In this document: piece after piece, positions 32,131-46,640 of the stretch | Numbering within the stretch: the stretch's first letter is position 1 | Layout of the letters: every line of letters starts with the position of its first letter | Source: an uncultured Actinomycetes bacterium | Lineage (GTDB): Bacteria > Actinomycetota > UBA4738 > HRBIN12 | Assembly (NCBI GenBank): GCA_963710985.1 | Contig: CAVQCI010000003.1 | Location: 682,959-746,958, forward strand | Direction of reading: 5' to 3' | Length of the DNA: 64,000 nucleotides | Notes under the pieces: generated by a model | What the model saw: only the letters and a program-made list of their open reading frames with translations | Database searches by the model: none | What the model was told of the DNA's origin: nothing | Made by a program: the position numbers and the translations under genes

Positions 32131-33565
32131 TCACGCGCGCACGCTCCGGGGCGAGGTGGTCGACTCCGCGGTCGCGCCGGCGGGCTCCGGCTCCATTGGC
32201 GCGTCGCGCCCCGCCGGCCACACGAAGAGCACGGCGACCAGCACGCACGCCCACGCGGTGCCGAGGGACCAGCCTGCCAGCACGTCGGTGAGCCAGTGCA
32301 CGCCCAGGTACACGCGCGACGCGCCAACCGCGAGCACCACGACGACCCCGGCCGCCCAGGCGACCGTCGAGGGACGCCGCGTCATGCGCCGGGTCACGAT
32401 CGCGGCGAGCGTCGCGTAGACGGCTGCCGACGCGGTCGCGTGCCCGGACGGGAAGGAGGCGCCGGCCACGGTCATCAGGTGGATCGCCACCGGGGGTCGC
32501 GGCCGCGCGATCACCACCTTCCACGTGTCGTACAGGACGATCGCGCCGGCGAGGGCGAGCACGAGCGCCAGGGCCGCGCGCCCGTCGCGCGCCCGGAACG
32601 CCAGGAAGGCGCCGACGACCACGACGAGCGGGATCAGCACGGCGTTGGAGCCGAGCCAGGTGACACCGCGCATCGCGGCGGTGAGCCCGTCGGTGCGGTG
32701 GGCCACCGCGAACCGCGTGACGCCTGGGTCCCACAGGGCCGCCTCTTCGTGGGCGACCACGTCCTGGGCGAGCCCGCCGAACGTCCAGGCGCCGAGCGCG
32801 GCGGCCACCACGGTGACGCTGAGCAGGAACCCGCGCGGCGTGGTCGTGTCGACGCGACCGGCGAGCCACGCGGACGTACGCGGGAACCGGCCGCGTGCCC
32901 ACGCCACCGGTCGCAGCGCCGCCGCCCGGTCGCTCAGGCGCTCGCCGCCCTCGCGCGCCTTCTTGAGCGAGCGCGTGAGGACGAGCCCGAGCAGGACGAG
33001 CCCGAGCAGCGCGAACCCGACGTAGCCCGCGTCCTTGGACACGCGCTCCCACGCCGCCCCTGCGAGGTAGCCGAGCAGGACGAACGTCGTGCCCCACAGG
33101 AACGCCCCGATCGCGTTGAACAGGGCGAACCGTCCGTAGGGCATCTCGGCCATCCCCGCGAGGCCGGGGACCATCACGCGGAGCGCCGCGGTGAACCGGC
33201 CGATCACGACCGCGTGGGGCCCGCGCCGGCGCAGGTACGCCTCCGCGGCGTCGAGGTGCTCGTCGGCGCGCGTCCGCACGATCGGGACGCGCCGAAGGAA
33301 CCCGCCGAGGACCTGCCGTCCCCACAGCCGGCCGATCCAGTAGCCGATGCCGTCGCCGACGAAGGCGCCGAGCACTGCTGCCGCGATCGCGACCGGGAGC
33401 GGATCCGCCCCTGGTAGGCGAGGACTCCGCCGAGCAGCACCGCGATCTCGCCGGGGAATACGAACCCCACGAACGCCGAGGACTCGAGCGCGGGATCGCG
33501 AAGACGATCGCGACCGCCGCAGCGCCGTGCAGGCTCAAGATCCAGTTCGTGATGCTCGCGAGCAA
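32131..33565 (-). pseudogene. DedA (SNARE-associated) / PAP2 phosphatase fusion membrane protein, two frame breaks near the 5' end
   Basis: MLASITNWILSLHGAAAVAIVFAI (ORF 31643..33565), then ALESSAFVGFVFPGEIAVLLGGVLAYQGRI (ORF 33204..33470), then AIAAAVLGAFVGDGIGYWIGR...PAP2 block SFPSGHATA...SRVYLGVHWLTDV (ORF 32131..33375). Breaks ~33487-33496 and ~33392-33402. Confidence 0.7.
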
Positions 33566-33725
33566 CGCGTTCCTCCGTCGGAGCGGGTCGCTCCTATGGG
33601 GCCTTCGTCACCACGTACGGGGCCGTTCGGTTACCGACCCCCTCGGGCGTCTCGCTAGCATGGCGCACGATCCGGCGCGTGCGCACATGCGAGCGCCCGG
33701 ATGGCCCGTACGAGAGGAGATCGCG

Positions 33726-36215
33726 GTGAGCGCCGACGTGAATGCAGGCGGATCGACGACGGGGGACTTGCCCTCCCGCGCACAGGTCGTGGTCGTCGGC
33801 GGCGGCGTGATCGGCACCTCGATCGCCTACCACCTGACGCACCTGGGGTGGCGCGACGTCGTCCTGCTCGAACGCAAGCAACTCACCGCCGGGACCACCT
33901 GGCACGCGGCCGGCTTGATCACCTCCGCCGGCATGACGTCGGAGACGCTCCTGTGGATGTCGCGGTACACGCGCGACCTCCTGCCGACGCTCGAGGAGGA
34001 GACCGGGCAGGCGACCGGGTTCCGTCCGATCGGTCACCTGCACCTCGCGACGACCCCCGGACGCCTGGAGACGATCCGCCGTGAGTCGGCGTTCGTGCGC
34101 TCGCTCGGGGTCACCCACGAGGAGCTCTCCGCGAAGGAGTTCCAGGGCCTGTGGCCGCAGGCCTACGTGGACGACGTGCTCGCCGCCTTCTACGTGCCCG
34201 ACGAGGGCCGCGCGAACCCCGCCGACGTCACGATGGCCTACGCGAAGGGCGCGACGATGGCGGGCGCCACCGTGATCGAGGGCGTGACCGTCACCGGGTT
34301 CACGAAGCACGGGCACCGCGTCAGCGGCGTCGTCACCGACCGGGGGACGATCGAGACCGAGTCCGTCGTCAACGCCGCCGGGATGTGGGGCCGTCAGGTC
34401 GGCGCGCTCGCCAGCGTGACGGTGCCGCTGCAGGCCGCCGAGCACTACTACGTGATCACCGAGCCGCTCGAGTGGGCGCACCCGGACCTGCCGGTCGTGG
34501 AGGACCCCGACCGCTACGGCTACTACCGCGAGGAGGGCGGCGGGATCCTGGTGGGGCTGTTCGAGCCCGTCGCCGGCCCGTGGGGCCTCGACGGGATCCC
34601 GCAAGACCTGGGGTTCGCGATGCTCCCGCCCGACTACGACCGCGTCGGCCCGTTCCTCGAGCGCGCGATGGACCGGTTCCCGGCGCTGCACGAGGCCGGG
34701 ATCAAGACGTTCTTCTGCGGGCCCGAGAGCTTCACGCCCGACATCTCGCCGCAGCTCGGCGAGGCGCCCGAGGTCGAGGGGTTCTTCGTGGCCGCCGGTC
34801 TCAACTCGCTCGGGATCCTGCTCTCGGGCGGCGTCGGCAGCACGATCGCTTCCTGGATCGTCGACGGCGTGCCGCCCGTCGACGTCACGGGCCTGACGGT
34901 CGATCGCACGCAGCCGTTCGAGACGTCGCGGCGGTTCCGGGCCGAGCGCGCGGTGGAGCAGCTCGGCGCGCTGTTCGGCGACGCCGTCTGGCCGAACTGG
35001 CACCCGGCGACGGCGCGCGGCGTCCGCCGCAGCGTGATCCACGACCGGCTCGAGGCCGCCGGCGCGCAGTGGTCGGTGAGCAGCGGCTGGGAGTACCCGG
35101 ACTGGTTCGCGGAGCCGGGCGCCGGCCACGTCGAGCTCACGCCCGGCTGGGACCGCGACGAGTCGTTCGGCTGCCAGGCGGAGGAGCACCGCGCGGTCCG
35201 CGAGGCCGTCGGCGTGCTCGACATGTCGCTGATGGCGAAGTTCCTGGTGCAGGGTCCCGACGCCGAGACGCTGCTGAACCGGGTGAGCACGAGCGACCTG
35301 GCGGTGCCGGTGGGCACGATCGTCTACACGCAGTGGCTGCACGAGCGCGGCGGGATCGTCGCCGACCTCACGGTGACGCGCGTCGGCGAGGACGCCTTCC
35401 TGGTGGTCGCGACCGACACGATCCACCGGCGCCTGCCCGCGTGGCTCCGACGCCACGCCCGCGAGGACGAGCGCGTGTCGTGGACCGACGTTACGTCGGG
35501 CACGACGCTCCTCACCGTGCAGGGCCCGCGCTCGCGCGAGCTGCTCTCGCGCCTGACCGACGCCGACCTGTCCAACGACGCGTTCCCCTACATGACCGCG
35601 AGGCCGATCGATGTCGGCTACGCGCCGGTCCAGGCGCTCCGCGTCACCTACGTCGGCGAGCTCGGGTGGGAGCTCCACGTGCCCGCCGAGTTCGCGGTGG
35701 GTGTCTACGACGCGCTGTTCGAGGCGGGCGAGGACCTCGGGATCCGCAACGCGGGCCTGCTCGCGATGAACAGCCTGCGGATGGAGAAGGCCTACCGCGA
35801 CTGGGGCCTGGACCTCGACAACACCGACACCCCGCTCGACGTCGGCCTCGGGTTCTGCGTGTCATGGGACAAGCCCGGCGGGTTCGTCGGCCGCGACGCC
35901 CTGCTCGCCCAGCGCGTGGAGGGCACGCCCAAGCGCCGGCTCGTGCAGTTCCTCCTGACCGACCCGGAGCCGCTCCTCTACGGGAACGAGCCCTTGCTGC
36001 GCGACGGCGAGATCGTCGGCTACAACCGGATCGGGGCGTACGGCCATACGCTGGGCGGCGCCGTCGGCCTCGGGATGGTCGAGGACGAGGCGGGCATCCC
36101 GGCGGAGTCGATCGAAGGCGCGAAATGGGAGCTCGACGTCGCCGAGGTCGCCGTACCCGCGCGGGCCTCGCTCCGCCCGATGTACGACCCGGACCGGGAG
36201 CGGATCAAGGCGTAA
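33726..36215 (+). CDS. Dimethylglycine/sarcosine dehydrogenase-like FAD oxidoreductase fused to GcvT folate-binding domain
   Basis: GTG 33726 lies 6 nt after GAGAGGAG. Blocks: VVVVGGGVIGTSIAYHL, GTTWHAAGL. The C-terminal half is aminomethyltransferase-like (GVLDMSLMAKFLV, LRVTYVGELGWELHVP, LRMEKAY). Intact to 36215. Confidence 0.8.
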   Translation: MSADVNAGGSTTGDLPSRAQVVVVGGGVIGTSIAYHLTHLGWRDVVLLERKQLTAGTTWHAAGLITSAGMTSETLLWMSRYTRDLLPTLEEETGQATGFRPIGHLHLATTPGRLETIRRESAFVRSLGVTHEELSAKEFQGLWPQAYVDDVLAAFYVPDEGRANPADVTMAYAKGATMAGATVIEGVTVTGFTKHGHRVSGVVTDRGTIETESVVNAAGMWGRQVGALASVTVPLQAAEHYYVITEPLEWAHPDLPVVEDPDRYGYYREEGGGILVGLFEPVAGPWGLDGIPQDLGFAMLPPDYDRVGPFLERAMDRFPALHEAGIKTFFCGPESFTPDISPQLGEAPEVEGFFVAAGLNSLGILLSGGVGSTIASWIVDGVPPVDVTGLTVDRTQPFETSRRFRAERAVEQLGALFGDAVWPNWHPATARGVRRSVIHDRLEAAGAQWSVSSGWEYPDWFAEPGAGHVELTPGWDRDESFGCQAEEHRAVREAVGVLDMSLMAKFLVQGPDAETLLNRVSTSDLAVPVGTIVYTQWLHERGGIVADLTVTRVGEDAFLVVATDTIHRRLPAWLRRHAREDERVSWTDVTSGTTLLTVQGPRSRELLSRLTDADLSNDAFPYMTARPIDVGYAPVQALRVTYVGELGWELHVPAEFAVGVYDALFEAGEDLGIRNAGLLAMNSLRMEKAYRDWGLDLDNTDTPLDVGLGFCVSWDKPGGFVGRDALLAQRVEGTPKRRLVQFLLTDPEPLLYGNEPLLRDGEIVGYNRIGAYGHTLGGAVGLGMVEDEAGIPAESIEGAKWELDVAEVAVPARASLRPMYDPDRERIKA

Positions 36216-36219
36216 GCGA

Positions 36220-37008
36220 TCAGGCGACCTGGAACGACCGCTTCGCGAGACCGAGGAAGAAGCCCTCGATCTCGGTGTCGGGGCTGTCCTCGGGGTCGCT
36301 CGCCGCGCCGAGCGTGACGAAGAGCGGTGCGAAGTGCTCGACGGTGGGGTGCGCGTAGGGCATCCCCGGCGCCTTCTCGCGGAAGGCCATCAGCTCGTCG
36401 ACGTCGCCGCGGTCCAGCGCCTCGCGGGCCCACTCGTCGAAGTCCTTCGACCAGCCGGGCGGGGTCGCGTCCGCGCTCCAGTCGCGCAGGAACGGCAGGC
36501 CATGGGTGAGGAACCCGGAGCCGACGATCAGGACGCCCTCGTCGCGGAGCGGTCGCAGCCGCTGCCCCAGCTCGAAGAGTCGCTGCGGATCGAGCGTCGG
36601 CATCGACATCTGCAGCACGGGGATGTCGGCCTCCGGATACATCACGAGCAGCGGCACGTAGGCGCCGTGGTCCAGGCCGCGGTCGGACTGCTCGTGAACC
36701 GTCTCCGTATCGGGCATCAGCGCGGCGACACGGCGCGCGAGGTCCGGCGCGCCCGGCGAGGGGTACGTCATCTCGTAGTAGCGCTGGGGGAACCCCCAGA
36801 AGTCGTAGGTGAGCGGGACGGCGTCGGCGGTGGCGCCTAGCGTGAGCGGCGCCGACTCCCAGTGCGCCGAGACGATCAGGATCTCCTTCGGCTTCGGCAG
36901 CTCGGACGCCCAGCGTGCCAGCTGGGAGGTCCAGGTCTCGTCGTCGACGAGCGGGGGCGCGCCGTGGCCCAGGTACAGGGCGGGCATCGCGGCGGGGACG
37001 TCGTTCAT
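36220..37008 (-). CDS. Class III extradiol dioxygenase (4,5-DOPA dioxygenase/YgiD-like)
   Basis: Intact 262-aa ORF. Blocks: LYLGHGAP, ILIVSAHWE, YDFWGFP, LDHGAYVPL, VGSGFLTH. Confidence 0.8.
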   Translation of the reverse strand: MNDVPAAMPALYLGHGAPPLVDDETWTSQLARWASELPKPKEILIVSAHWESAPLTLGATADAVPLTYDFWGFPQRYYEMTYPSPGAPDLARRVAALMPDTETVHEQSDRGLDHGAYVPLLVMYPEADIPVLQMSMPTLDPQRLFELGQRLRPLRDEGVLIVGSGFLTHGLPFLRDWSADATPPGWSKDFDEWAREALDRGDVDELMAFREKAPGMPYAHPTVEHFAPLFVTLGAASDPEDSPDTEIEGFFLGLAKRSFQVA

Positions 37009-37462: not shown

Positions 37463-38290
37463 TCACGCGGCGTCGGCCACCGTGACGAAGCCGTACCCGT
37501 GGGCGCGGATCGTCCGGATCACGCGCGGCAAGGCGTTGGCATCGAGCGTCGAGCCGTCGTCGGGGTTCGCGCCGACGTGCATCAGCACGATCGCGCCCGG
37601 CGCCAGACCGTCGTGCACGGCGCCGACGATCTCGTCGACGGTCACACCCGACGACGTGCCCCTCCACCCGATCGAGCCGATCGTCCAGCCGATGCAGCCG
37701 TAGCCGAGCGCGTGGATCGTGCCGATCGCCTGCGCGCCGCTCGCCCCGTAAGGGAAGCGGAAGAGCGGCCGCGGATCGTGCCCGGTGATCCGGCGCAGCG
37801 AACGCTGGGCGGCGAGCACCTCGGCGGTCACCGCCGCTCGCGACAGCGTCGTCAGGTCGGCGTGCGTCTGGCTGTGGTTGCCGACGGGGAACCCCGACGC
37901 GATCGTGCGCGCTTGGTCCGGGTACACCTCGGCCCAGCGCCCGGTCATGAAGAAGGTCGCCGGCACGCTCTCGTGCCGCAGGGTCGCGAGGATCGAGGCG
38001 ACCCCCGCGTCGTTCCCGCCCGCATCGAACGTCAGCGCCACCACGGCGCGATCGGTGGGAAGCCGCGACCAGCACGCGCCGGCGAGTGACGGCGGCAGCG
38101 ACGAGGGAGCCGATGTTGGAGGCGTCGTCGTCCTGACGGGTGGCTCGGACGTCGGCGGAGGTGGCGCGGAGGTCGTCGCAGATGCGGGCGGGGGCGAGAC
38201 CGGCGGTGTCGGGGCCGGCGATCCTGTCGTGCAGGCGACCAGCGCGAGCCCGACCGCCCATGCCAGGGCCGCTCGGATCGGCGTCGTCAT
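37463..38290 (-). CDS. Polysaccharide deacetylase (NodB homology) lipoprotein
   Basis: ATG 38290. Lipobox GLALVAC, then a Pro/Thr/Ser linker. NodB blocks: LTFDAGG, NHSQTH, RFPYG, LMH. Confidence 0.8.
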   Translation of the reverse strand: MTTPIRAALAWAVGLALVACTTGSPAPTPPVSPPPASATTSAPPPPTSEPPVRTTTPPTSAPSSLPPSLAGACWSRLPTDRAVVALTFDAGGNDAGVASILATLRHESVPATFFMTGRWAEVYPDQARTIASGFPVGNHSQTHADLTTLSRAAVTAEVLAAQRSLRRITGHDPRPLFRFPYGASGAQAIGTIHALGYGCIGWTIGSIGWRGTSSGVTVDEIVGAVHDGLAPGAIVLMHVGANPDDGSTLDANALPRVIRTIRAHGYGFVTVADAA

Positions 38291-38401
38291 CTCGCACCCC
38301 GCCGACACCATCATCGGACCTCGCACGAGGGGTGCGGTGGCCGCTCGGCCTGCGTCCGACGGGACGGTGCGGCGCGAGGGTCGTCGCGTCCGCGACCGGC
38401 G

Positions 38402-38407
38402 TAGGCT
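38402..38407 (+). promoter_or_regulatory. -10-like hexamer TAGGCT upstream of archease-rtcB
   Basis: gGTAGGCTCGcaGGTGAGGGGAGtgtctATG. Confidence 0.35.
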
Positions 38408-38427
38408 CGCAGGTGAGGGGAGTGTCT

Positions 38428-38853
38428 ATGGGCGAGCCGGGCTCCGGGTTCGCGTTCCTCGAGCACACCGCGGACGTCGGGATCCGCGCGTGGGGGCCGT
38501 CGGTCCGCGCGGCGTTCGAGCAGGCGGGGCGCGGCCTCGCGACGCTTATCGGGGCGACGGCGCCGCCTCCTGGCCGTGCCGTCCCGATCCACGTCGAGGC
38601 GCACGACCGCGAAGCGCTGCTCGTGAGGTTCCTCGACGAGCTGGTCTTCGTGTTCGAGACGCACGACGGCGAAGGGCTCGCGTCGCTCGAGGTCCCACGC
38701 CTGTCCGCGACGTCGTGCGACGCCGTCGTCCGGCTCGCGCCGATGGCCGTCCCCTTGGAGGGCTTGCTCGTGAAGGCCGCCACCTATCACCAGCTCTCGA
38801 TCGCCGAGGGGCCCGACGGTACGGCCGAGGCGCAGATCTACCTGGATGTGTGA
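38428..38853 (+). CDS. Archease
   Basis: ATG 38428. FAFLEHTADVGIRAWG...VKAATYHQLSI blocks are typical of archease. The stop lies 3 nt before the rtcB ATG. Confidence 0.85.
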   Translation: MGEPGSGFAFLEHTADVGIRAWGPSVRAAFEQAGRGLATLIGATAPPPGRAVPIHVEAHDREALLVRFLDELVFVFETHDGEGLASLEVPRLSATSCDAVVRLAPMAVPLEGLLVKAATYHQLSIAEGPDGTAEAQIYLDV

Positions 38854-38856
38854 GCG

Positions 38857-40303
38857 ATGCAGCCCGAGCGGATCGATGCGTTCTCGTGGCGGGTGCCGGT
38901 CGGCACGGTCGAGGGGATGCGCGTGCCCGGCGTCGTGTTCGGCACCGAGGCGCTGATCGCGCGCGCGGTCGACGACCGGGCGATCCTGCAGGTCGCGAAC
39001 GTCGCGACGCTCCCGGGGATCGTCGGGGCCTCGTTCGCGATGCCCGACATCCACTGGGGCTACGGCTTCCCGATCGGCGGCGTCGCCGCGACCGACCCGG
39101 ACGCCGACGGCGTGATCTCGCCCGGCGGCGTCGGCTTCGACATCGCCTGCGGCGTGCGGCTCGTGCGGACGGACCTGACGTGGGAGTCCGAGGTGCGGCC
39201 ACGGATCCGCGAGCTGGTGGCGACGCTCGCGAGCGCGACGCCCCGCGGGACGGGCGCCGGCGGTCGGCTGCGGCTCAGCCGCGCCGACGTGCTCGACGTC
39301 CTTCGCGACGGCGTCGGGTTCCTGCTCGGCCGCGGGATCGGCTGCCCGCGCGACGCGGAGCTCTGCGAGGACGGCGGCGCGCTCGCCGGCGCCGCGCCCG
39401 AGGTGGTCAGCGAGCGAGCTCTCACGCGCGGCGCCGGCCAGCTGGGGTCGCTCGGCGCCGGGAACCACTTCCTCGAGGTCCAGGTGGTCGACGAGATCCT
39501 CGAGCCGGTCGCCGCGAACGCGATGGGGCTGTTCGCGGGGCAGGTGTGCGTGATGATCCACTGCGGCTCGCGCGGTCTCGGGCACCAGGTGTGCACCGAT
39601 CACGTCGCGGCGATGGACCGGCTGATGCGACCCCTCGGGATCGAGGTGCCGGACCGCCAGCTCGCGTGCGCTGCCGCTCGCGCACGAGGCCGCGCGCCGC
39701 TACGTCGGCGCGATGAACGCGGCCGCGAACTTCGCGCGCGCGAACCGCCACCTCCTGGCCGACGGCGTTCGGATCTCGTTCGAGTCCGTCTTCGAACGCT
39801 CCGCACGGGACCTCGGGATCGGGCTCGTGTACGACGTCGCGCACAACCTCGCGAAGCTCGAGGAGCACGAAGTGGACGGCCGCCGGCGCACGCTGTGCGT
39901 GCACCGCAAGGGCGCGACACGGGCGTTCGGACCGGGCCATCCATCACTGCCCGACGCGTACCGAACGATCGGCCAGCCGGTGCTGATCCCCGGCAGCATG
40001 GGCACGGCGTCGTTCGTGCTGGTGGGCACCGCCCAGGCCGAGCGCCGGGCGTTCGGCTCCACCTGTCACGGGGCGGGACGGCTGCTCTCACGGACAAAGG
40101 CCCGCAAGCAGATCGGCGGTCACGAGCTCGCGCGGCAGCTCGAGGAGCAGGGCATCGTGCTCGCGCCGGGCTCCCCGAAGCTCCTCGCCGAGGAGGCGCC
40201 GTTCGCCTACAAGGACGTCGACGAGGTCGTGCGCGCGTGCGAAGGCGCCGGCTTGTCGCGGGCGGTCGCGCGCCTGCGCCCGGTCGGGGTGGTCAAGGGC
40301 TGA
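38857..40303 (+). pseudogene. rtcB: RNA 3'-phosphate/5'-OH ligase RtcB, one frame break
   Basis: [36 protein letters not shown] and [10 protein letters not shown] are in ORF 38857..41088. [26 protein letters not shown]...HNLAK...HRKGATRA...IPGSMGT...STCHGAGR is in ORF 39713..40303. There is a 1-nt excess at ~39672. Confidence 0.85.
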
Positions 40304-40304
40304 G

Positions 40305-40997
40305 TCAGACGGTGGTGAGCCGTCCCTCGTCGCGGGCACGGGCCAGCCGTGCCGCGCGCCGAGCCAGACGGAGCGGCTCGGGCGTGCGGGCGCGTTCCAC
40401 AGTCATGCGGACGACGGTGAGCGCGGCGTCGAGGTCCGTCCGCCATGCCGGGTGCACCACCACCGGGCGGATGCCCGTCTGCGTGCGGAGCCACGCGGCG
40501 ACGATCCCGCCGTCCAGGACCAACGGCGATGTCGCCCAGCGTTCCGGTGCGGGTTCCGGCCCGCGCGCGAGCAGCGGCCGGTCGGTGACCCCGACGGTCG
40601 GCACGTCGAGGACGGCGCCGAGGTGCAGCGCGAGGCCGGCCCCGCGGGGATGGTCGCGCCCGGTCGCGTTCACGAGGAGCACGTCGGGGCGCAGCCCGAG
40701 CGCCAGCACGGCTGCCTCGAGGAGGGGCCCTTCCCGCAGGGCGAGCGCCCCCGCCACGTACCCGGCGCCGGTCTCGCCGCGCACCACGGCTTCGGCGGAC
40801 CCCACGACCGCCGCCGCCCAGGCAGGCTCGCCCGGTTCCTCACCGGCCGAGCCCGTCGGCGCCGTGAACCAGACCCCGCCGATCGCGAGCGTCCGGCGCG
40901 GCGGCCGCCACGGCGACGTGGACGACGCGGCGAGCGCGTCCTGGACGTCGCGAAGCTCCGGCGCCGTCCGGGGCCAGCCGGACGCCGACGCCGTCAC
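40305..40997 (-). CDS. nfi: Endonuclease V-like protein with apparently substituted catalytic residues
   Basis: GTG 40997 overlaps the upstream stop (GTGA). Blocks: [64 protein letters not shown]. These are collinear with EndoV as recalled from memory. Confidence 0.75.
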
Positions 40998-41797
40998 GGC
41001 CTGCCCGCGAGGGCGAAGGCGCCGTACCCGACGACGCGGTCGGCGTCTCCCGCGGTGTCGCCGGAAGTGCGGAGATCGAGCAGGGTGACGTCGAGGTCGC
41101 GTTGCCGCGCGAGCTCCACCGCGCCGCGGAGCGCGAACACGCCGCACGCGTCGTCGGTGCCGATCGCCCCGGGGTTCCTGGCGAGCACGGCGTCGGCCGT
41201 CCGGCGATCCTTCCGCCGGGCCGACTCCAGGGGCAGGTAGTGGCTGAGGTCGGTCGAGACCACCACGAGGTCGGCGGCGTCGCCGACGGCCGCGATCACG
41301 CCCGCGGCCTGCTCGGACGAGGACCAGCCGACCGCGACGGGTGCGATCCGGACGCCGGGTCCGAGCACGACCTGGAGCCACGGCAGCTGCACCTCGAGCG
41401 CGTGCTCGTCCAGGTGCGGTCCTTCGTCGATCGACGCTCCGGCATCCACGGCGACGACGCGCAGGTCCTCGTCGACCTCGACGTCACCGAGCGGGGTCCG
41501 CCACGCGCCCGCCCCGCTCACGGCGAGACCGTCGAGCGGTTCGAAATGCGACGGTCCGAACAGGGCGACGCTGCGGATCCGCTCCCACCAGGGGGTGAGG
41601 AGCCCGTACCCCGACGCCGCGACCGGTCCGGAGTAGCGGTAGCCGGCGTGCGGCACGATCAACGCGAACGGCGGGGCGTCGGACGGCGCCGCCGGCGCGC
41701 TCGCAGACAGCAGCGCTCGGACCTCTGCTTCCAGGTGCGCGGCGTCCTCGGGGTAGAAGGCCCCGCTCGCCGCGGGTCGGCGGATCAACGTCTTCAT
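40994..41797 (-). CDS. AmmeMemoRadiSam system protein B (Memo-like)
   Basis: ATG 41797 overlaps the radical-SAM stop (ATGA). Blocks: [48 protein letters not shown]. Confidence 0.8.
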
Positions 41798-42885
41798 CGC
41801 ACGCCTCCCGTCATCTGCACGGGCAGCCGCCGCGACCCCCACGCGCCCGGCTCGGGTTCGAACACGCCGGCGCACGGTGTCCCGCACGCGGCGCACCGGC
41901 CGTGGGCATCGAGTCCCCAGGCGGTCAGGTCGTAGCCGTCGCGTCCGATCACGGCGGTCTCGCACCCGTGGCACCAGGTCGTCTGCCCGGCCGGGTCGTC
42001 CACGTTGCCCGTGTACGCGTAGCGGATCCCGTTCGCGAGCGCGATGTCGCGCGCGCGATGCAACGTCGAGCGAGGGGTCGGCGGGGGGTCGCGCATCTTC
42101 CAGTCGGGATGGAACGCGGTGAAGTGCACAGGGACGTCCGGCCCCAGCCGCTCGACGATCCATCCGGTCATCCGGTCGGTCTCGTCCGCGTCGTCGTTCT
42201 GCCCGGGGATCAGCAGGTTGGTCAGCTCGACCCAGACGTCGGTCTCGCGCACGAGGTACTCGATCGTCTCGAGCACCGGGGCCAGCGAGGCCGCGCAGAC
42301 CGACCGGTAGAAGCCCTCGGTGAACGCCTTCAGGTCGACGTTCGCGGCGTCCATGTGCCGGTAGAACTCTTCACGGGGCCCGGTGCAGACGTACCCGGCG
42401 GTGACCGCCACCGCGCGGATCCCGCGCGCGCGGCACGCGTCGGCTACGTCGATCGCGTACTCGTGGAAGATCACCGGGTCGTTGTAGGTGAAGGCCACGC
42501 TGCGGCAACCGAGCCGCTCGGCGGCCGCGGCGAGCTCCTCGGGAGACGCCGCGTCGGCGAGGGTGTCCATCTCGCGCGACTTGGAGATGTCCCAGTTCTG
42601 ACAGAACCGGCACGCCAGGTTGCACCCGGCGGTCCCGAACGAGAGCACCGACGTGCCGGGCAGGAAGTGGCTGAGCGGCTTCTTCTCGATCGGGTCGACA
42701 CAGAAGCCGCTCGAGCGGCCGTAGCTCGTGAGGACGATCGCGTCGTCTTCACGAGCGCGGACGAAGCAGAGCCCGCGCTGGCCCTCGTGCAGACGGCACC
42801 CGCGGGGGCACAGGTCGCACTGGACACGGCCGTCGTCCAACGCGTGCCACCACCGGGTCGGATGCGAACTCCCCGCGACCGACAT
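41794..42885 (-). CDS. AmmeMemoRadiSam system radical SAM enzyme
   Basis: ATG 42885 (Met 18 of ORF 41794..42936). Blocks: VQCDLCPRGCRL, VDPIEKKPLSHFLPG, CNLACRFCQNWDIS (CxxxCxxC). C-terminal Cys cluster CHGC...CAACGTPC. Confidence 0.85.
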   Translation of the reverse strand: MSVAGSSHPTRWWHALDDGRVQCDLCPRGCRLHEGQRGLCFVRAREDDAIVLTSYGRSSGFCVDPIEKKPLSHFLPGTSVLSFGTAGCNLACRFCQNWDISKSREMDTLADAASPEELAAAAERLGCRSVAFTYNDPVIFHEYAIDVADACRARGIRAVAVTAGYVCTGPREEFYRHMDAANVDLKAFTEGFYRSVCAASLAPVLETIEYLVRETDVWVELTNLLIPGQNDDADETDRMTGWIVERLGPDVPVHFTAFHPDWKMRDPPPTPRSTLHRARDIALANGIRYAYTGNVDDPAGQTTWCHGCETAVIGRDGYDLTAWGLDAHGRCAACGTPCAGVFEPEPGAWGSRRLPVQMTGGVR

Positions 42886-42961
42886 CGCCGACCTCCAGGC
42901 ACCATCTTGCGCCTCCACTGGTGCTCCCGGCCACACCCACGGTCGTTCGCCGCCGTTCGCG

Positions 42962-42967
42962 TAGCAT
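42962..42967 (+). promoter_or_regulatory. -10-like hexamer TAGCAT, 6 nt upstream of GTG 42974 (possible leaderless chrA)
   Basis: gcgTAGCATcccgagGTG. Confidence 0.3.
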
Positions 42968-42973
42968 CCCGAG

Positions 42974-44123
42974 GTGGTCGCGTCGCGGGGGGCCGAACGA
43001 CACCTCCGGGAGATCGCGCTCGCCTATCTCAAGCTCGGCGCGATCGGGTTCGGCGGCCCGGCCGCGCACGTGTCGCTGATGCGCCGCGAGTTCGTGGTCG
43101 CCCGGAAGTGGCTCGACGAGGACCGCTTCCTGGAGCTGTTCGGGGCGGCGAGCTTGATCCCCGGTCCGAGCTCCACCGAGCTCGGGATGATGATCGGGTA
43201 CCTGCGCGCCGGCTGGCCGGGACTCCTCGTGGCGGGGGTCTGCTTCATCGCCCCGGCGATGGCGATCGTGCTCGTGCTCGCCTGGTCCTACGTTCGGCTC
43301 GGCGCGCTTCCGCAGACCGGCTGGGTCCTGTACGGGATCAAGCCCGTGATCGTCGCGATCGTTACCGACGCGCTGTGGCAGCTCGGGCGCCGCGCGCTGA
43401 GGTCGTGGGCGCTCGCGGCGTTGGGCGCGGCCGTGCTCGTCCTGTACCTGGCGGGCGTCAACCTGTTGCTCCTGCTGTTCGGCGGGGCGCTGCTCGTGAC
43501 GGCCGCCCGCAACGCGAAGCGCCTCGGCCCCCGCCTGCACTCGCTCGCGCCGGCGTTGCCGCTCGGCGCCTTGTCGGTCGTGTCGAGCGGCGCCGCCACG
43601 CCGGCCTCGCTGTTCCTCGAGTTCGCGAAGCTCGGCGCGGTCGTGTTCGGCAGCGGGTACGTCCTGCTGGCGTTCCTCCGCGCCGACCTGGTGCAGCACC
43701 TGCACTGGCTGAGCGAACGGCAACTGTTGGACGCGGTCGCCGTCGGCCAGGTCACTCCCGGACCCGTGTTCACCACCGCCACGTTCATCGGCTACCTCGT
43801 CGACGGCCTCGCGGGCGCGTTCGTCGCGACGGCGGGTATCTTCCTGCCGGCCTTCATCCTGTCCGGCGTCGTCTACGGGCTGTTGCCGCGGATTCCGCCG
43901 TTCGGCGTGGGCGGCCGCGTTCCTCGAGGGGGTCACCGTCTGCGGTCTGGGGCTCATGGCGGGGGTCGCCGTGGAGTTTGGACGGGTGGCGATCGTCGAC
44001 GTGGCGAGTGCGGCGATCGCCCTCGTCGCCTTCGTGGTGCTGCGGCGGTTCGAGCCCAACTCCGCGTGGCTCGTGCTCGGGGGCGCTGCCGCGGGTCTGC
44101 TCGTGCGCGGTCTCGTCGGCTAG
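42974..44123 (+). pseudogene. chrA: Chromate transporter ChrA, one frame break near the 3' end
   Basis: Duplicated CHR domains (LKLGAIGFGGPAAH, LIPGPSSTE / AKLGAVVFGSGYVLL, VTPGPVFTTA) in ORF 42974..44176. The last ~75 aa (RRSAWAAAFLEGVTVCGLGLMAGVA...LLVRGLVG*) are in another frame with stop 44121-44123. Break ~43888-43900. Confidence 0.75.
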
Positions 44124-44219: not shown

Positions 44220-46640
44220 ATGAAGGATCGGTACCAGGTCGTCGTGATCGGCGGTGGGATCGTGGGGTGCAGCGTCCTGTACCACCTCACGCTTCGCGGG
44301 CTATCCGACGTTGCGCTCCTGGAGCGCGAGGAGCTCACCGCCGGCTCCACGTGGCACGCGGCCGGTGGGTTCCACGCGATCAACGCGGACACGCGGATCG
44401 CCGCGCTGCAGAAGTACACGATCTCGATGTACGAGCAGGTCGAGCGCGAGAGCGGCCAGAGCACGGGGCTGCACATGTCGGGCGGCCTCGAGCTCGCGGG
44501 CACGCCCGAGCGGTGGCGGTTGCTGAAGTCCGAGCTCGCCTGGCATCACATGATGGGCACCGACGCCTACCTCCTCACACCCGAGGAGGCGACGGCGATG
44601 GTCCCGATCATCGACCCGACCGGCCTCGAGGGCGCGCTGTTCGATCCGCACGAGGGCAACCTCGACCCGAACGGCGCCACGCGCGCTTACGCGATCGCGG
44701 CGAAGCGTCGCGGCGCCGAGCTGATCGAGCACGACCGCGTGCTCGCGCTCGCCCCCACGGCGAGCGGGGAGTGGCGCATCGAGACCGAGCAGGGCGCGAT
44801 CGTCGCCGAGCACGTGGTGAACGCGGCGGGCCTGTGGGCGCGCAGGGTCGGCCGGATGGTCGGCGTCGACCATCCGCTCGTGCCGATCGTGCACCACTAC
44901 CTCGTGACCGACGACGTGCCCGAGGTCGCCGCGATCGAGGGCGACATGGCCGCCGTCACCGACCTCGAGGGCTTCACATACCTGCAGCGCGAGGGCAACG
45001 GCGTCCTCATGGGCGTCTACGAACGCAACCCGCGCCATTGGAGCGTCGAGGGCGCTCCCTGGGACTTCGGCCGCCAGCTGTTCCCCGAGGAGCTCGAGCG
45101 GATCATGCCCGAGCTCTCGATCGGCTTCGCGCGGTTCCCCGTCCTGCAGGACGTCGGGATCAAGCGCTGGGTGAACGGCGCGTTCACGTTCACGCCCGAC
45201 GGCAACCCGCTCGTCGGACCGGTCGCCGGGCTCCCCGGCTACTGGGCCGCGTGCGGGGTCATGGCCGGGTTCTCCCAGGGGGCCGGCATCGGGCTCGCCC
45301 TGGCGAACTGGATCGTCGACGGCGACCCGGGCGAGGACGTCTTCGGGATGGACGTCGCGCGGTTCGGCTCCTACGCCTCGAACGACCGCTACCTGCGCGC
45401 GACCACCGCGCAGTTCTACGCCCGCCGGTTCCTGATCGCCTACCCGAACGAGGAGTTGCCCGCCGGGCGTCCGCTCAAGACCACGCCCTGCTACGACGAC
45501 TTCCGCGCGGCGGGCGCCGTCTTCGGTGAGGTCTACGGCCTCGAGGTCCCGCTGTACTTCGCGCCCGAGGGGTTCGTGGAAACCCCGACGCTCGGCCGCT
45601 CCGACGCCGAGCCCATCGTTGCCGAGGAGGTCGAGGCGGTCCGCACCGCCGCGGGCGCGTACGAGATCGCGGCGTATGCGCGCTACGAGGTGACCGGTCC
45701 CGGCGCGGAGGCGTGGCTCGACCGGCTCGTGGCCTCGCGCCTGCCCTCGCCCGGACGCCTGCGTCTTGCCCCGATGCTGAACGACGCCGGACGCTTGATG
45801 GGCGACCTGTCCGTGACGCGCCTGGACGAGGACCGGTTCTGGCTGATCGGCTCGTACTACCTCCAGGACTGGCACGAGCGCTGGTTCCGCTCGCACCTGC
45901 CGCCGTCCGGGGTCGCGCTCCGCAACGTGACCGACCGGTGGGCCGGCTTCTCCGTATCCGGCCCCGCATCGCGCGCGATCCTCGAGGCCCTCGTCCACGA
46001 CGACGTGTCGAACGATTCCTTCCCGTTCATGGCGGTCCGTCAGATGGACGTCGGCTCCGCGCAGGCGATCGTCGGCCGGCTCTCGCTCACCGGGGAGCTC
46101 GGCTACGAGATCGTGGTGCCGGCGAACGTGGAGCGCACGCTGCTCCGCGAGCTCCGCGAGGCCGGCGCCGAGCACGGCCTGCGCGCGATCGGGGATCGCG
46201 CGATCGACAGCCTCCGCCTGGAGAAGGGCTACGGGATCTGGAGCGCCGAGTTCACCCAGGCGTACACGCCGGGGATGTCCGGGCTCGACCGCTGGGTCGC
46301 CTTCGACAAAGCCGGGTTCGTCGGTCGCGAGGCAGCGCTCCGCGAACGTGAGGAGGGGCCGGCGCGTTGGCTCGTGCTGCTCGAGGTCGATGCGGCCGAC
46401 GCCGACGCCTCAACCGACGAGCCGATCTGGCTCGAGGGCCGGCTGGTCGGGTTCGTGACATCGGGCGCCTACGGTCACCACGTCGCCAAGAGCCTGGCGC
46501 TCGCCTACGTCGACGCGAACCTCGTCGAGGCGGCGCCCGAGCTCGCCGTCTCGGTCGTCGGGGACCCGAGGCCGGCGCGGATCTTGCCCGAGGTGCCGTA
46601 CGACCCGAAGGGCACGAAGCTCCGCGACACCACGGCCTGA
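44220..46640 (+). CDS. Dimethylglycine/sarcosine dehydrogenase-like FAD oxidoreductase fused to GcvT domain (second paralog)
   Basis: Intact 806-aa ORF. Blocks: VVVIGGGIVGCSVLYHL, GSTWHAAGG. GcvT-like C-terminal half (GRLSLTGELGYEIVVP, LRLEKGY). Confidence 0.8.
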   Translation: MKDRYQVVVIGGGIVGCSVLYHLTLRGLSDVALLEREELTAGSTWHAAGGFHAINADTRIAALQKYTISMYEQVERESGQSTGLHMSGGLELAGTPERWRLLKSELAWHHMMGTDAYLLTPEEATAMVPIIDPTGLEGALFDPHEGNLDPNGATRAYAIAAKRRGAELIEHDRVLALAPTASGEWRIETEQGAIVAEHVVNAAGLWARRVGRMVGVDHPLVPIVHHYLVTDDVPEVAAIEGDMAAVTDLEGFTYLQREGNGVLMGVYERNPRHWSVEGAPWDFGRQLFPEELERIMPELSIGFARFPVLQDVGIKRWVNGAFTFTPDGNPLVGPVAGLPGYWAACGVMAGFSQGAGIGLALANWIVDGDPGEDVFGMDVARFGSYASNDRYLRATTAQFYARRFLIAYPNEELPAGRPLKTTPCYDDFRAAGAVFGEVYGLEVPLYFAPEGFVETPTLGRSDAEPIVAEEVEAVRTAAGAYEIAAYARYEVTGPGAEAWLDRLVASRLPSPGRLRLAPMLNDAGRLMGDLSVTRLDEDRFWLIGSYYLQDWHERWFRSHLPPSGVALRNVTDRWAGFSVSGPASRAILEALVHDDVSNDSFPFMAVRQMDVGSAQAIVGRLSLTGELGYEIVVPANVERTLLRELREAGAEHGLRAIGDRAIDSLRLEKGYGIWSAEFTQAYTPGMSGLDRWVAFDKAGFVGREAALREREEGPARWLVLLEVDAADADASTDEPIWLEGRLVGFVTSGAYGHHVAKSLALAYVDANLVEAAPELAVSVVGDPRPARILPEVPYDPKGTKLRDTTA

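What the first reader, a model, noticed from the sequence alone, without database searches (positions are those of the whole stretch)
40305..42885. AmmeMemoRadiSam radical-SAM and Memo-like genes are translationally coupled to an endonuclease-V-like gene, with no AMMECR1 partner
Three minus-strand genes are chained by 4-nt start/stop overlaps: ATGA at 41794-41797 and GTGA at 40994-40997. The first gene has the hallmarks of the AmmeMemoRadiSam radical SAM enzyme (VQCDLCPRGC, VDPIEKKPL, CNLACRFCQNWDIS). The second matches the Memo-like protein B ([28 protein letters not shown]). The third position is normally taken by AMMECR1 (protein A) when the system is clustered. Here it is an EndoV-fold gene, and I see no AMMECR1-like ORF anywhere in the 64 kb. 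The system has no established function. Tight coupling to a nucleic-acid lesion-recognition fold suggests a nucleic-acid (RNA/DNA base) substrate or a new three-component variant.
Basis: partly seen in the sequence, partly recalled or inferred. Interest (0 to 1): 0.75.

Follow-up and report, generated by a model that had tools for sequence, protein, structure and literature searches.

The report
Lineage-specific rSAM–Memo–EndoV-like operon
Three tightly packed genes (a radical-SAM enzyme, a Memo-like protein and a probably non-cutting relative of the DNA-repair enzyme endonuclease V) form a real operon, but only in one small group of uncultured soil actinobacteria, so it is a weak clue to the unknown function of the Memo/AMMECR1 system rather than a new general system.

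Summary
The minus strand carries rSAM (41794-42885, TIGR04337 637 bits), Memo-like protein B (40994-41797, TIGR04336 232 bits) and an EndoV-fold gene (40305-40997, PF04493 118 bits). They are chained by ATGA and GTGA overlaps. No AMMECR1 is detectable in six frames of the 64 kb.

- The trio recurs in about 10 contigs, all from one narrow EndoV-like/rSAM lineage.
- It is absent from 78 of 80 species genomes that carry the EndoV-like clade, and from 80 of 80 of the closest metagenomic rSAM loci.
- AMMECR1 is missing next to every co-directional rSAM→Memo pair (0 of 14), with or without EndoV. EndoV is therefore not taking AMMECR1's place.

Two new findings:
- The EndoV-like gene belongs to a large clade (at least 520 species). 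The clade keeps the wedge Tyr and the hypoxanthine pocket but lacks the canonical catalytic set (D43, K139 and H214 are always replaced, D110 in about half). It is usually a stand-alone gene.
- RtcB-archease lies beside this rSAM family in three different arrangements.

Most likely reading: a lineage-specific operon fusion of a two-gene AmmeMemoRadiSam variant with a widespread, probably non-nucleolytic EndoV paralogue. A functional link to nucleic acids is possible but unproven.

The parts
41794..42885 (-). AmmeMemoRadiSam-type radical SAM enzyme, 363 aa. It has an N-terminal Cys motif (CDLCPRGC), the CNLACRFC [4Fe-4S]/SAM motif, and a C-terminal CHGC...CAAC motif.
   Evidence: TIGR04337 637 bits against cutoff 220, and PF04055. 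The exact 363-aa product is in the public collection, where members of its 90% cluster are named 'AmmeMemoRadiSam system radical SAM enzyme'. dN/dS is 0.12-0.31 against relatives.
40994..41797 (-). Memo-like protein (AmmeMemoRadiSam protein B), 267 aa, with no AMMECR1 fusion.
   Evidence: TIGR04336 232 bits. PF01875 147 bits covers residues 8-260 and is the only domain. dN/dS is 0.20-0.53.
40305..40997 (-). EndoV-fold protein, 230 aa, from a clade without the canonical catalytic set. V42/W43 replace D43, N110 replaces D110, D139 replaces K139 and R213 replaces H214. E89, the wedge Y80 and the pocket residues G83, L85, G113, G136 and L142 are kept.
   Evidence: PF04493 118 bits, but the nfi equivalog NF008629 scores only 107 against a cutoff of 230. 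Alignments to T. maritima, S. avermitilis and E. coli EndoV are. Residue census over 81 clade members is. The AF2 model has pLDDT 90.9 and TM 0.83 to 3GOC. dN/dS is 0.23-0.37.
41794..41797 (-). ATGA overlap between the rSAM stop and the Memo start. It is preceded by a GGGAGG ribosome-binding site at 41804-41809.
   Evidence: Sequence read. The same ATGA occurs in L165, L166 and L167.
40994..40997 (-). GTGA overlap between the Memo stop and the EndoV-like start.
   Evidence: Sequence read. L165 and L166 have GTGA and L167 has ATGA. L004 has a 32-nt overlap and L002 a gap of about 45 nt.
38857..40303 (+). RtcB RNA ligase gene, convergent with the operon. Its stop codon lies 1 nt from the EndoV-like stop. 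The reading frame is broken by one extra C near 39671.
   Evidence: PF01139 matches profile positions 1-226 in one frame and 237-426 in another. The single-base insertion is seen against three intact 480-481 aa orthologues.
38428..38853 (+). Archease (the RtcB cofactor), upstream of RtcB in the same direction.
   Evidence: PF01951 91 bits. The same archease-RtcB pair is found in L164 and L165.

Best explanation
This is a lineage-specific operon in a small group of uncultured soil Actinomycetota.

Two parts have become joined. The first is the two-gene, AMMECR1-less form of the AmmeMemoRadiSam system (rSAM followed by Memo, co-directional and overlapping), which is common in this rSAM subclade. 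The second, immediately downstream, is the genome's EndoV-like gene, so the three genes are co-transcribed and translationally coupled.

The EndoV-like protein is not a substitute for AMMECR1 and is not specific to this system. It belongs to a large clade, mostly actinobacterial, of EndoV-fold proteins that normally stand alone with variable neighbours.

That clade keeps the strand-separating wedge tyrosine and the hypoxanthine-recognition pocket. It has lost the canonical Mg2+/catalytic residues. I infer that it most likely binds deaminated or modified purines in DNA or RNA without making the classical EndoV cut, or that it cuts through a rewired site.

Shown: the gene identities, the overlaps, the lineage restriction, the absence of AMMECR1 locally, the residue substitutions, and purifying selection on all three genes.

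Inferred: co-transcription, non-nucleolytic binding, and that the fusion reflects at most a loose shared theme (nucleic-acid damage or modification, given the neighbouring RtcB-archease) rather than an obligate three-part machine.
For: (1) Distribution of the link.
- In a scan of 185,579 species genomes, 520 carry the EndoV-like clade. Of the best 80 loci, only L002 and L004 have rSAM-Memo directly upstream.
- No other neighbour is conserved; the most frequent occurs in 21 of 81 loci.
- None of the 80 closest metagenomic rSAM loci (67-79% identity) has an EndoV-like gene nearby.

(2) AMMECR1 is absent from all 14 co-directional rSAM->Memo loci. It is present in 23 loci where Memo is divergent from the rSAM. 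The gene downstream of co-directional Memo is variable.

(3) The linked loci form one compact EndoV-like subclade of 10 sampled members, 7 linked and 3 unlinked. They fall within one rSAM clade, where they are interleaved with unlinked loci.
- Linked: L164-L168, L172, L173, and L171 in a divergent arrangement.
- Unlinked close relatives: L003, L162, L169, L170.

(4) Residue census over 81 clade members, T. maritima numbering.
- D43 is F/W/V/Y/A in all 75 sequences with a residue at that column (6 are gapped); none is acidic.
- K139 is H in 49 and D in 26.
- H214 is R in 80 of 81.
- D110 is D in 43 and N in 36.
- E89 is kept in 65 of 81.
- Y80 is kept in 81 of 81.
- G83, L85, G113, G136 and L142 are kept in 74-81 of 81.

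(5) The nfi equivalog HMM score is below its cutoff, 107 against 230.

(6) D43A, D110N and E89Q are the mutations used to trap uncut T. maritima EndoV-substrate complexes (PDB 2W36, 6OZF, 6OZG).

(7) dN/dS is 0.12-0.53 for all three genes, so they are maintained.
Against: - Within the lineage, the trio is retained although the flanks differ. The upstream gene is a chromate transporter, a cation ATPase or a DAO/GCV_T gene. RtcB is present, reduced to a remnant, or absent.
- Memo identity falls as low as 51% across the lineage. Adjacency even survives an inversion in L171. Both points hint at selection for keeping the genes together.
- The overlaps are conserved.
- RtcB-archease, another nucleic-acid system, lies beside this rSAM family in three different arrangements. 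This fits a nucleic-acid theme.
- An invariant D115, H182 and an acidic residue at position 57 in the clade could rebuild an active site, so nuclease activity is not excluded.
Confidence: 0.55

Rival explanations
1. A true three-component variant. The EndoV-like protein, as a non-cutting reader of a deaminated or modified purine, recruits the rSAM-Memo pair to a nucleic-acid base. In this lineage it takes over the substrate-presenting role that AMMECR1 plays elsewhere.
For: - Translational coupling is conserved in L165, L166, L167 and L173.
- The trio is kept while the flanks change, and adjacency survives an inversion in L171.
- The lesion pocket and wedge Tyr are retained while catalytic residues are lost.
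- There is no AMMECR1 in the window or in any linked locus.
Against: - All linked loci trace to one subclade, so this is effectively one evolutionary event.
- Four close EndoV-like relatives are unlinked.
- Equally close rSAM-Memo pairs (L082 and L099, 79% identity) lack both EndoV and AMMECR1.
- 78 of 80 species with the clade keep it as a stand-alone gene.
- Linked and unlinked EndoV-like proteins share the same motifs.
Confidence: 0.2
2. The meaningful partner is RtcB-archease. On this reading, the AmmeMemoRadiSam genes belong to an RNA repair or modification neighbourhood, and the EndoV-like gene is a passenger or accessory within that island.
For: - RtcB and/or archease lie beside the rSAM in three different arrangements. 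They are convergent after EndoV-like in the window, L164-L167 and L173. The order is RtcB->rSAM->Memo in L083. The order is Memo/AMMECR1 <-|-> rSAM->archease->RtcB in L144.
- My rough chance expectation is about 0.1 such locus in 80, against 2 observed plus the window lineage. This figure is my own estimate, not a tool result.
Against: - Only 2 of 80 surveyed rSAM loci show it.
- The convergent orientation in the window lineage gives no co-transcription.
- RtcB is frameshifted in the window, reduced to a remnant in L004, and absent from L002 and L171, while the trio persists.
- Canonical EndoV leaves 3'-OH/5'-P ends (PMC4650699). From established knowledge, RtcB joins 3'-P or 2',3'-cyclic-P ends to 5'-OH ends, so it would not seal those.
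Confidence: 0.15
3. The third gene is simply the organism's ordinary, active endonuclease V (nfi), which happens to be co-transcribed. The substitutions are tolerated or compensated.
For: - Source databases name the protein deoxyribonuclease V or endonuclease V.
- The full EndoV fold is predicted.
- E89 is kept, the protein is under purifying selection, and D115 is invariant.
Against: - No member of the clade has an acidic residue at D43. K139 and H214 are replaced throughout, and D110 is N in the window.
- The score is less than half the nfi equivalog cutoff.
- The same single substitutions are used to make uncut substrate complexes of T. maritima EndoV.
Confidence: 0.1

Closest known systems
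AmmeMemoRadiSam system (TIGR04335 AMMECR1/protein A, TIGR04336 Memo-like/protein B, TIGR04337 radical SAM). Its gene contexts were analysed by Burroughs et al. 2019, J Biol Chem 294:10211. That paper is not held in the library, and I cite it from memory of its abstract.
   Same: The rSAM and Memo genes score far above the family cutoffs and are adjacent and overlapping. From my memory of the abstract, it already proposed a link between Memo contexts and nucleotide-base modification.
   Different: No AMMECR1 is present in the 64 kb window or in any linked locus. The gene order is rSAM->Memo co-directional, not Memo(-AMMECR1) divergent from the rSAM. An EndoV-like gene is appended. I could not check whether EndoV is among the contexts already published.
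Endonuclease V / Nfi (T. maritima TM1865, PDB 2W35; E. coli, 4XPU; S. avermitilis SAV1684, 3GOC)
   Same: Same fold: TM 0.83 and 35% identity to 3GOC. The PF04493 score is above its cutoff. The wedge Tyr80 and most of the hypoxanthine pocket are conserved.
   Different: The catalytic residues D43, D110, K139 and H214 are replaced. The PYIP wedge motif is reduced to GYVA. The score is below the nfi equivalog cutoff. The clade has its own invariant residues, including R114, D115, H182, W185 and R213.
Engineered cleavage-deficient EndoV mutants (T. maritima D43A 2W36, D110N 6OZF, E89Q 6OZG)
   Same: They carry the same kinds of substitution at the metal-binding positions. These mutants still bind inosine-containing nucleic acid, as shown by the complexes crystallised with substrate.
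   Different: Here the substitutions are natural, multiple, and conserved across at least 520 species. Binding has not been tested.
RtcB-archease RNA ligase pair
   Same: Both genes are present in the canonical order, archease then RtcB, immediately next to the operon. They are intact in relatives.
   Different: They are convergent with the operon and so not co-transcribed with it. The window copy is frameshifted.

Membership tests
AmmeMemoRadiSam system | Radical SAM enzyme matching TIGR04337 above the curated cutoff, with a CX3CX2C motif | tested here: met
   637 bits against cutoff 220 over the full profile, positions 1-349. The CNLACRFC motif is in the translation.
AmmeMemoRadiSam system | Memo-like protein B matching TIGR04336/PF01875 | tested here: met
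   232 bits against cutoff 26, and PF01875 147 bits.
AmmeMemoRadiSam system | AMMECR1 protein A (TIGR04335/PF01871), clustered with or fused to the other two | tested here: not met
   No second domain is found in Memo or the rSAM. The custom AMMECR1 HMM gives no hit at E<=10 in six frames of the 64 kb window or of any EndoV-like locus. The HMM's source sequences were confirmed as PF01871.
AmmeMemoRadiSam system | AMMECR1 encoded anywhere in the same genome | not testable with these tools
Endonuclease V (Nfi) | PF04493 domain and EndoV (RNase H-like) fold | tested here: met
   PF04493 118 bits against 23.4. The AF2 model has pLDDT 90.9. Foldseek's top 35 hits are all EndoV, with TM 0.83 to 3GOC.
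Endonuclease V (Nfi) | Score above the NCBIfam equivalog cutoff for deoxyribonuclease V (NF008629) | tested here: not met
   107 bits against cutoff 230.
Endonuclease V (Nfi) | Catalytic and metal-binding residues D43, E89, D110, K139, H214 (T. maritima numbering) | tested here: not met
   In the window protein these positions are V42/W43, E89, N110, D139 and R213. Across the 81 clade members no sequence has an acidic residue at D43, H214 is R in 80, and K139 is H or D in 75.
Endonuclease V (Nfi) | Wedge Tyr (PYIP motif) and hypoxanthine pocket (G83, L85, G111, G113, G136, L142) | tested here: inconclusive
   Y80 is kept in 81 of 81. G83, L85, G113, G136 and L142 are kept in 74-81 of 81. G111 is changed to A in 80 of 81, and both prolines of PYIP are lost, giving GYVA.
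Co-transcribed, translationally coupled operon | Same strand, with start/stop overlaps conserved in relatives | tested here: met
   ATGA and GTGA overlaps in the window. The same overlaps occur in L165, L166, L167 and L173.
Co-transcribed, translationally coupled operon | A single transcript spanning the three genes | not testable with these tools
   No expression data are available. The promoter/terminator scan found nothing in this 73-76% GC region.
Anti-phage defence system | Match to a PADLOC defence-protein model | tested here: not met
   The only hit is a generic radical-SAM similarity to pVip, 17 bits at E=6e-4. Memo, EndoV-like, archease and RtcB give nothing.

The most novel reading that the evidence does not exclude
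A naturally nuclease-deficient EndoV paralogue acts as the nucleic-acid-recognition subunit of an AMMECR1-less rSAM-Memo machine. It flips a deaminated or otherwise altered purine in RNA or DNA into its retained pocket, where the base is chemically modified or repaired by the radical SAM and Memo enzymes. The neighbouring RtcB-archease would point to RNA as the substrate. This would give the first concrete substrate class for the uncharacterised Memo/AMMECR1/rSAM system.
Probability: 0.15. Interest if true: 0.8.

Novelty: new variant of a known kind. Interest (0 to 1): 0.42.

Why it matters
Memo and AMMECR1 are conserved from bacteria to humans and are linked to human disease, but I found no established biochemical function for them in the literature searched. 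Gene-neighbourhood clues are the main route to a testable hypothesis.

This locus gives a narrow but concrete clue. In one actinobacterial lineage, the rSAM-Memo pair is translationally coupled to a base-recognition fold and sits next to an RNA ligase.

Separately, there is a large clade of proteins annotated as 'endonuclease V' that lacks the catalytic residues. If confirmed, these are mis-annotated as repair nucleases in at least 520 species. They could be natural inosine or lesion readers, which is interesting both for biology and as reagents.

Tried and rejected
- Literature. Burroughs et al. 2019 (JBC; PMC6664185) is not held in the library. Searches for AMMECR1/Memo combined with radical SAM, RtcB, archease or endonuclease V found no paper describing this link.
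- Rfam gathering scan of the whole window: no RNA families.
- Promoter and terminator consensus scan of 38000-43300: nothing. It is uninformative at this GC content.
- PADLOC: no defence-system membership.
- My first crude GC3-based gene caller merged Memo and EndoV-like into a 743-aa shadow ORF at 38857-41088. I abandoned it for six-frame ORF clustering.
- My first residue census picked ORFs in the wrong frame and gave noise. I redid it with the frame fixed.
- Conserved-neighbour clustering around the 80 EndoV-like loci found no recurrent partner.
- I did not attempt to find AMMECR1 elsewhere in the same genome, because no remaining tool could tie a protein hit to the genome.
Full report
**1. 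What is in the sequence**

The window is about 70-76% GC, which is typical of Actinomycetota. Three genes lie on the minus strand between 40305 and 42885.

- The first gene (41794-42885, 363 aa) matches the AmmeMemoRadiSam radical SAM model TIGR04337 over its full length. It scores 637 bits against a cutoff of 220 and carries the CNLACRFC cluster motif.
- The second gene (40994-41797, 267 aa) matches TIGR04336 at 232 bits and Pfam Memo at 147 bits.
- The third gene (40305-40997, 230 aa) matches Pfam Endonuclease_5 at 118 bits.

Reading the strand directly shows ATGA at 41797-41794, preceded by a GGGAGG ribosome-binding site, and GTGA at 40997-40994. All three products, with exactly these starts, exist in the public protein collection. 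Members of their clusters are named 'AmmeMemoRadiSam system radical SAM enzyme', 'AmmeMemoRadiSam system protein B' and 'deoxyribonuclease V'.

**2. AMMECR1**

Neither Memo nor the rSAM has a second domain.

To search the window I first needed genuine AMMECR1 sequences. In metagenomic loci that carry close relatives of the rSAM, I found AMMECR1 domains fused to or following Memo. An example is the 467-aa Memo-AMMECR1 fusion in L110, which has PF01875 plus PF01871. An HMM built from 23 of these domains finds all of them at E<1e-27. It finds nothing at E<=10 in the six-frame translation of the whole window or of any EndoV-like locus.

Local absence of AMMECR1 is therefore confirmed. Absence from the whole genome could not be tested.

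**3. Does the adjacency recur?**

*Starting from the EndoV-like gene.* A scan of one genome per species (185,579 species) found 520 genomes with a relative.
- Among the best 80 loci, each with up to 10 kb of flank per side, only L002 and L004 have rSAM and Memo directly upstream.
- Clustering all flanking ORFs found no conserved neighbour of this gene. The most frequent cluster occurs in 21 of 81 loci and is a sugar-transport permease in related Solirubrobacterales.

*Starting from the rSAM.* None of the 80 closest metagenomic loci (67-79% identity) has an EndoV-like gene nearby.

*Looking up individual close EndoV-like and rSAM proteins.*
- The same trio with 4-nt overlaps turns up in L165, L166, L167/L168 and L173.
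- It is partly visible in L164 and L172.
- In L171, rSAM-Memo lies divergent from the EndoV-like gene.
- Equally close EndoV-like genes stand alone in L003, L162, L169 and L170.

*Trees.* In a neighbour-joining tree, the linked EndoV-like genes form one subclade of 10 among 82 sampled sequences, 7 linked and 3 unlinked. L171 fell below the coverage filter and is not in that tree. In the rSAM tree the linked loci sit in one clade, interleaved with unlinked loci.

The adjacency is therefore real and inherited within one lineage. It is not a general property of either family.

**4. Is EndoV 'in AMMECR1's place'?**

No. The 80 rSAM loci show three layouts.

| Layout | Loci | AMMECR1 | EndoV-like |
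|---|---|---|---|
| Memo divergent from the rSAM | 31 | detected in 23; many of the rest are cut by contig ends | none |
| rSAM->Memo co-directional | 14 | none | none |
| rSAM without Memo nearby | 35 | none | none |

The gene after a co-directional Memo is variable. Examples are an ABC ATPase, a TetR regulator and various opposite-strand genes. The window's rSAM-Memo belongs to this co-directional, AMMECR1-less group. Lack of AMMECR1 goes with the arrangement, not with the presence of EndoV.

**5. The EndoV-like protein is not a canonical endonuclease V**

It scores 107 bits against the NCBIfam nfi equivalog, whose cutoff is 230.

Sequence and profile alignments to solved EndoV structures and a census of 81 clade members give the following, in T. 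maritima numbering.

| Position | State in the clade |
|---|---|
| D43 | F/W/V/Y/A in the 75 sequences with a residue (6 gapped); never acidic |
| K139 | H in 49, D in 26 |
| H214 | R in 80 of 81 |
| D110 | D in 43, N in 36 (N in the window) |
| E89 | kept in 65 of 81 |
| Wedge Y80 | invariant |
| Pocket G83, L85, G113, G136, L142 | kept in 74-81 of 81 |
| G111 | A in 80 of 81 |

- The clade also has its own invariant residues, including D115, H182, W185 and R213.
- The AlphaFold model is confident (pLDDT 90.9) and superposes on S. avermitilis EndoV with TM 0.83.
- D43A, D110N and E89Q are the substitutions crystallographers used to trap T. maritima EndoV on uncut substrate. The sequences and titles of 2W36, 6OZF and 6OZG show this.
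- dN/dS of 0.23-0.37 shows that the gene is maintained.

My inference is a lesion- or base-binding protein without the classical Mg2+-dependent cut. A rewired active site cannot be excluded.

**6. The neighbours**

Convergent with the operon, with stop codons 1 nt apart, are archease (38428-38853) and RtcB (38857-40303).
- The window's RtcB has one extra C near 39671 relative to three intact 480-481 aa orthologues.
- L004 keeps only a C-terminal remnant of RtcB.
- L002 and L171 have no RtcB nearby.

RtcB and archease also lie next to this rSAM family in two other layouts. L083 has RtcB->rSAM->Memo. L144 has Memo/AMMECR1 <-|-> rSAM->archease->RtcB. Three layouts are more than I would expect by chance. 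My rough estimate is about 0.1 chance locus per 80, but the sample is small.

Canonical EndoV leaves 3'-OH and 5'-P ends (PMC4650699). From established knowledge of RtcB, it does not join such ends, so a simple cut-and-reseal pathway is unlikely.

The wider neighbourhood is metabolic. It includes:
- two dimethylglycine-oxidase-like genes;
- a chromate transporter;
- a LigB/YgiD-like dioxygenase;
- a polysaccharide deacetylase;
- protocatechuate dioxygenase.

None of the five proteins matches a defence-system model beyond a generic radical-SAM similarity. No Rfam family is present in the window.

**7. Interpretation**

The best-supported reading (confidence 0.55) is a lineage-specific operon fusion. 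The common two-gene, AMMECR1-less rSAM->Memo module has joined with a widespread, normally stand-alone, probably non-nucleolytic EndoV paralogue.

A genuine three-part nucleic-acid-modifying variant (0.2) is not excluded. Within the lineage the trio outlasts changes of its flanks, and it even survives an inversion. A broader link between AmmeMemoRadiSam and RtcB-archease (0.15) is an independent lead.

As I recall its abstract, Burroughs et al. (2019) already linked Memo gene contexts to nucleotide-base modification. I could not read the paper. I therefore cannot say whether EndoV or RtcB contexts are already published, and I lower the novelty claim accordingly.

**8. Verdict**

- The arrangement is a new variant of a known kind, confined to one lineage.
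- Interest is moderate (0.42). The clue to Memo/AMMECR1 function is concrete and testable but rests on essentially one evolutionary event.
- The side finding, a large catalytic-site-degenerate 'endonuclease V' clade, may be the more robust novelty.

Noticed in passing
window 38857-40303 (+), insertion near 39671: The RtcB gene is split across two reading frames by a single extra C, relative to three intact 480-481 aa orthologues (L164, L165, L167). It is either a recent pseudogene or an assembly error. L004 retains only a C-terminal RtcB remnant.
   Followed up: partly
window 40305-40997 (-); loci L002-L081: The EndoV-like gene belongs to a clade found in at least 520 species genomes. Most are Actinomycetota, with some MAGs labelled Fidelibacterota, Acidobacteriota or Dormiibacterota. 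Databases annotate these proteins as 'endonuclease V', but they lack D43, K139 and H214 (and often D110) while keeping the wedge Tyr and the hypoxanthine pocket.
   Followed up: yes
L083 3-2000; L144 3658-7126; window 38428-42885: RtcB and/or archease lie next to the AmmeMemoRadiSam radical SAM gene in three different gene orders. One of them (L144) has a full Memo + AMMECR1 + rSAM set. This suggests a link between the system and RNA repair.
   Followed up: partly
L110 147-1547 (-); also L104, L108, L123: Single ORFs of about 460 aa fuse Memo (PF01875) to AMMECR1 (PF01871). They are transcribed divergently from the rSAM gene.
   Followed up: partly
window 33549-36215 (+) and 44220-46640 (+): Two paralogous DAO-FAO_M-GCV_T genes (dimethylglycine/sarcosine-oxidase-like) flank the region. 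In L167 such a gene sits directly upstream of the rSAM.
   Followed up: no
window 36220-37008 (-): A LigB-family, YgiD-like 4,5-DOPA extradiol dioxygenase homologue lies about 4 kb from the Memo gene. It scores 186 bits on NF007914, below the cutoff of 233. It belongs to the same structural superfamily as Memo.
   Followed up: no
L166 3385-4677 (-): A RES-domain toxin gene and an adjacent 221-aa gene are inserted between the EndoV-like gene and RtcB in one relative. This shows that the junction is a site of gene insertion.
   Followed up: no
window 40301-40307: The RtcB stop (40301-40303, + strand) and the EndoV-like stop (40305-40307, - strand) are 1 nt apart. No terminator-like structure is present, so convergent transcripts would overlap.
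   Followed up: partly
window 38857-41088 (+): A 743-aa ORF that begins as RtcB runs on, after the frameshift, through the antisense of the EndoV-like and Memo genes. It is a high-GC shadow ORF and not a gene.
   Followed up: yes
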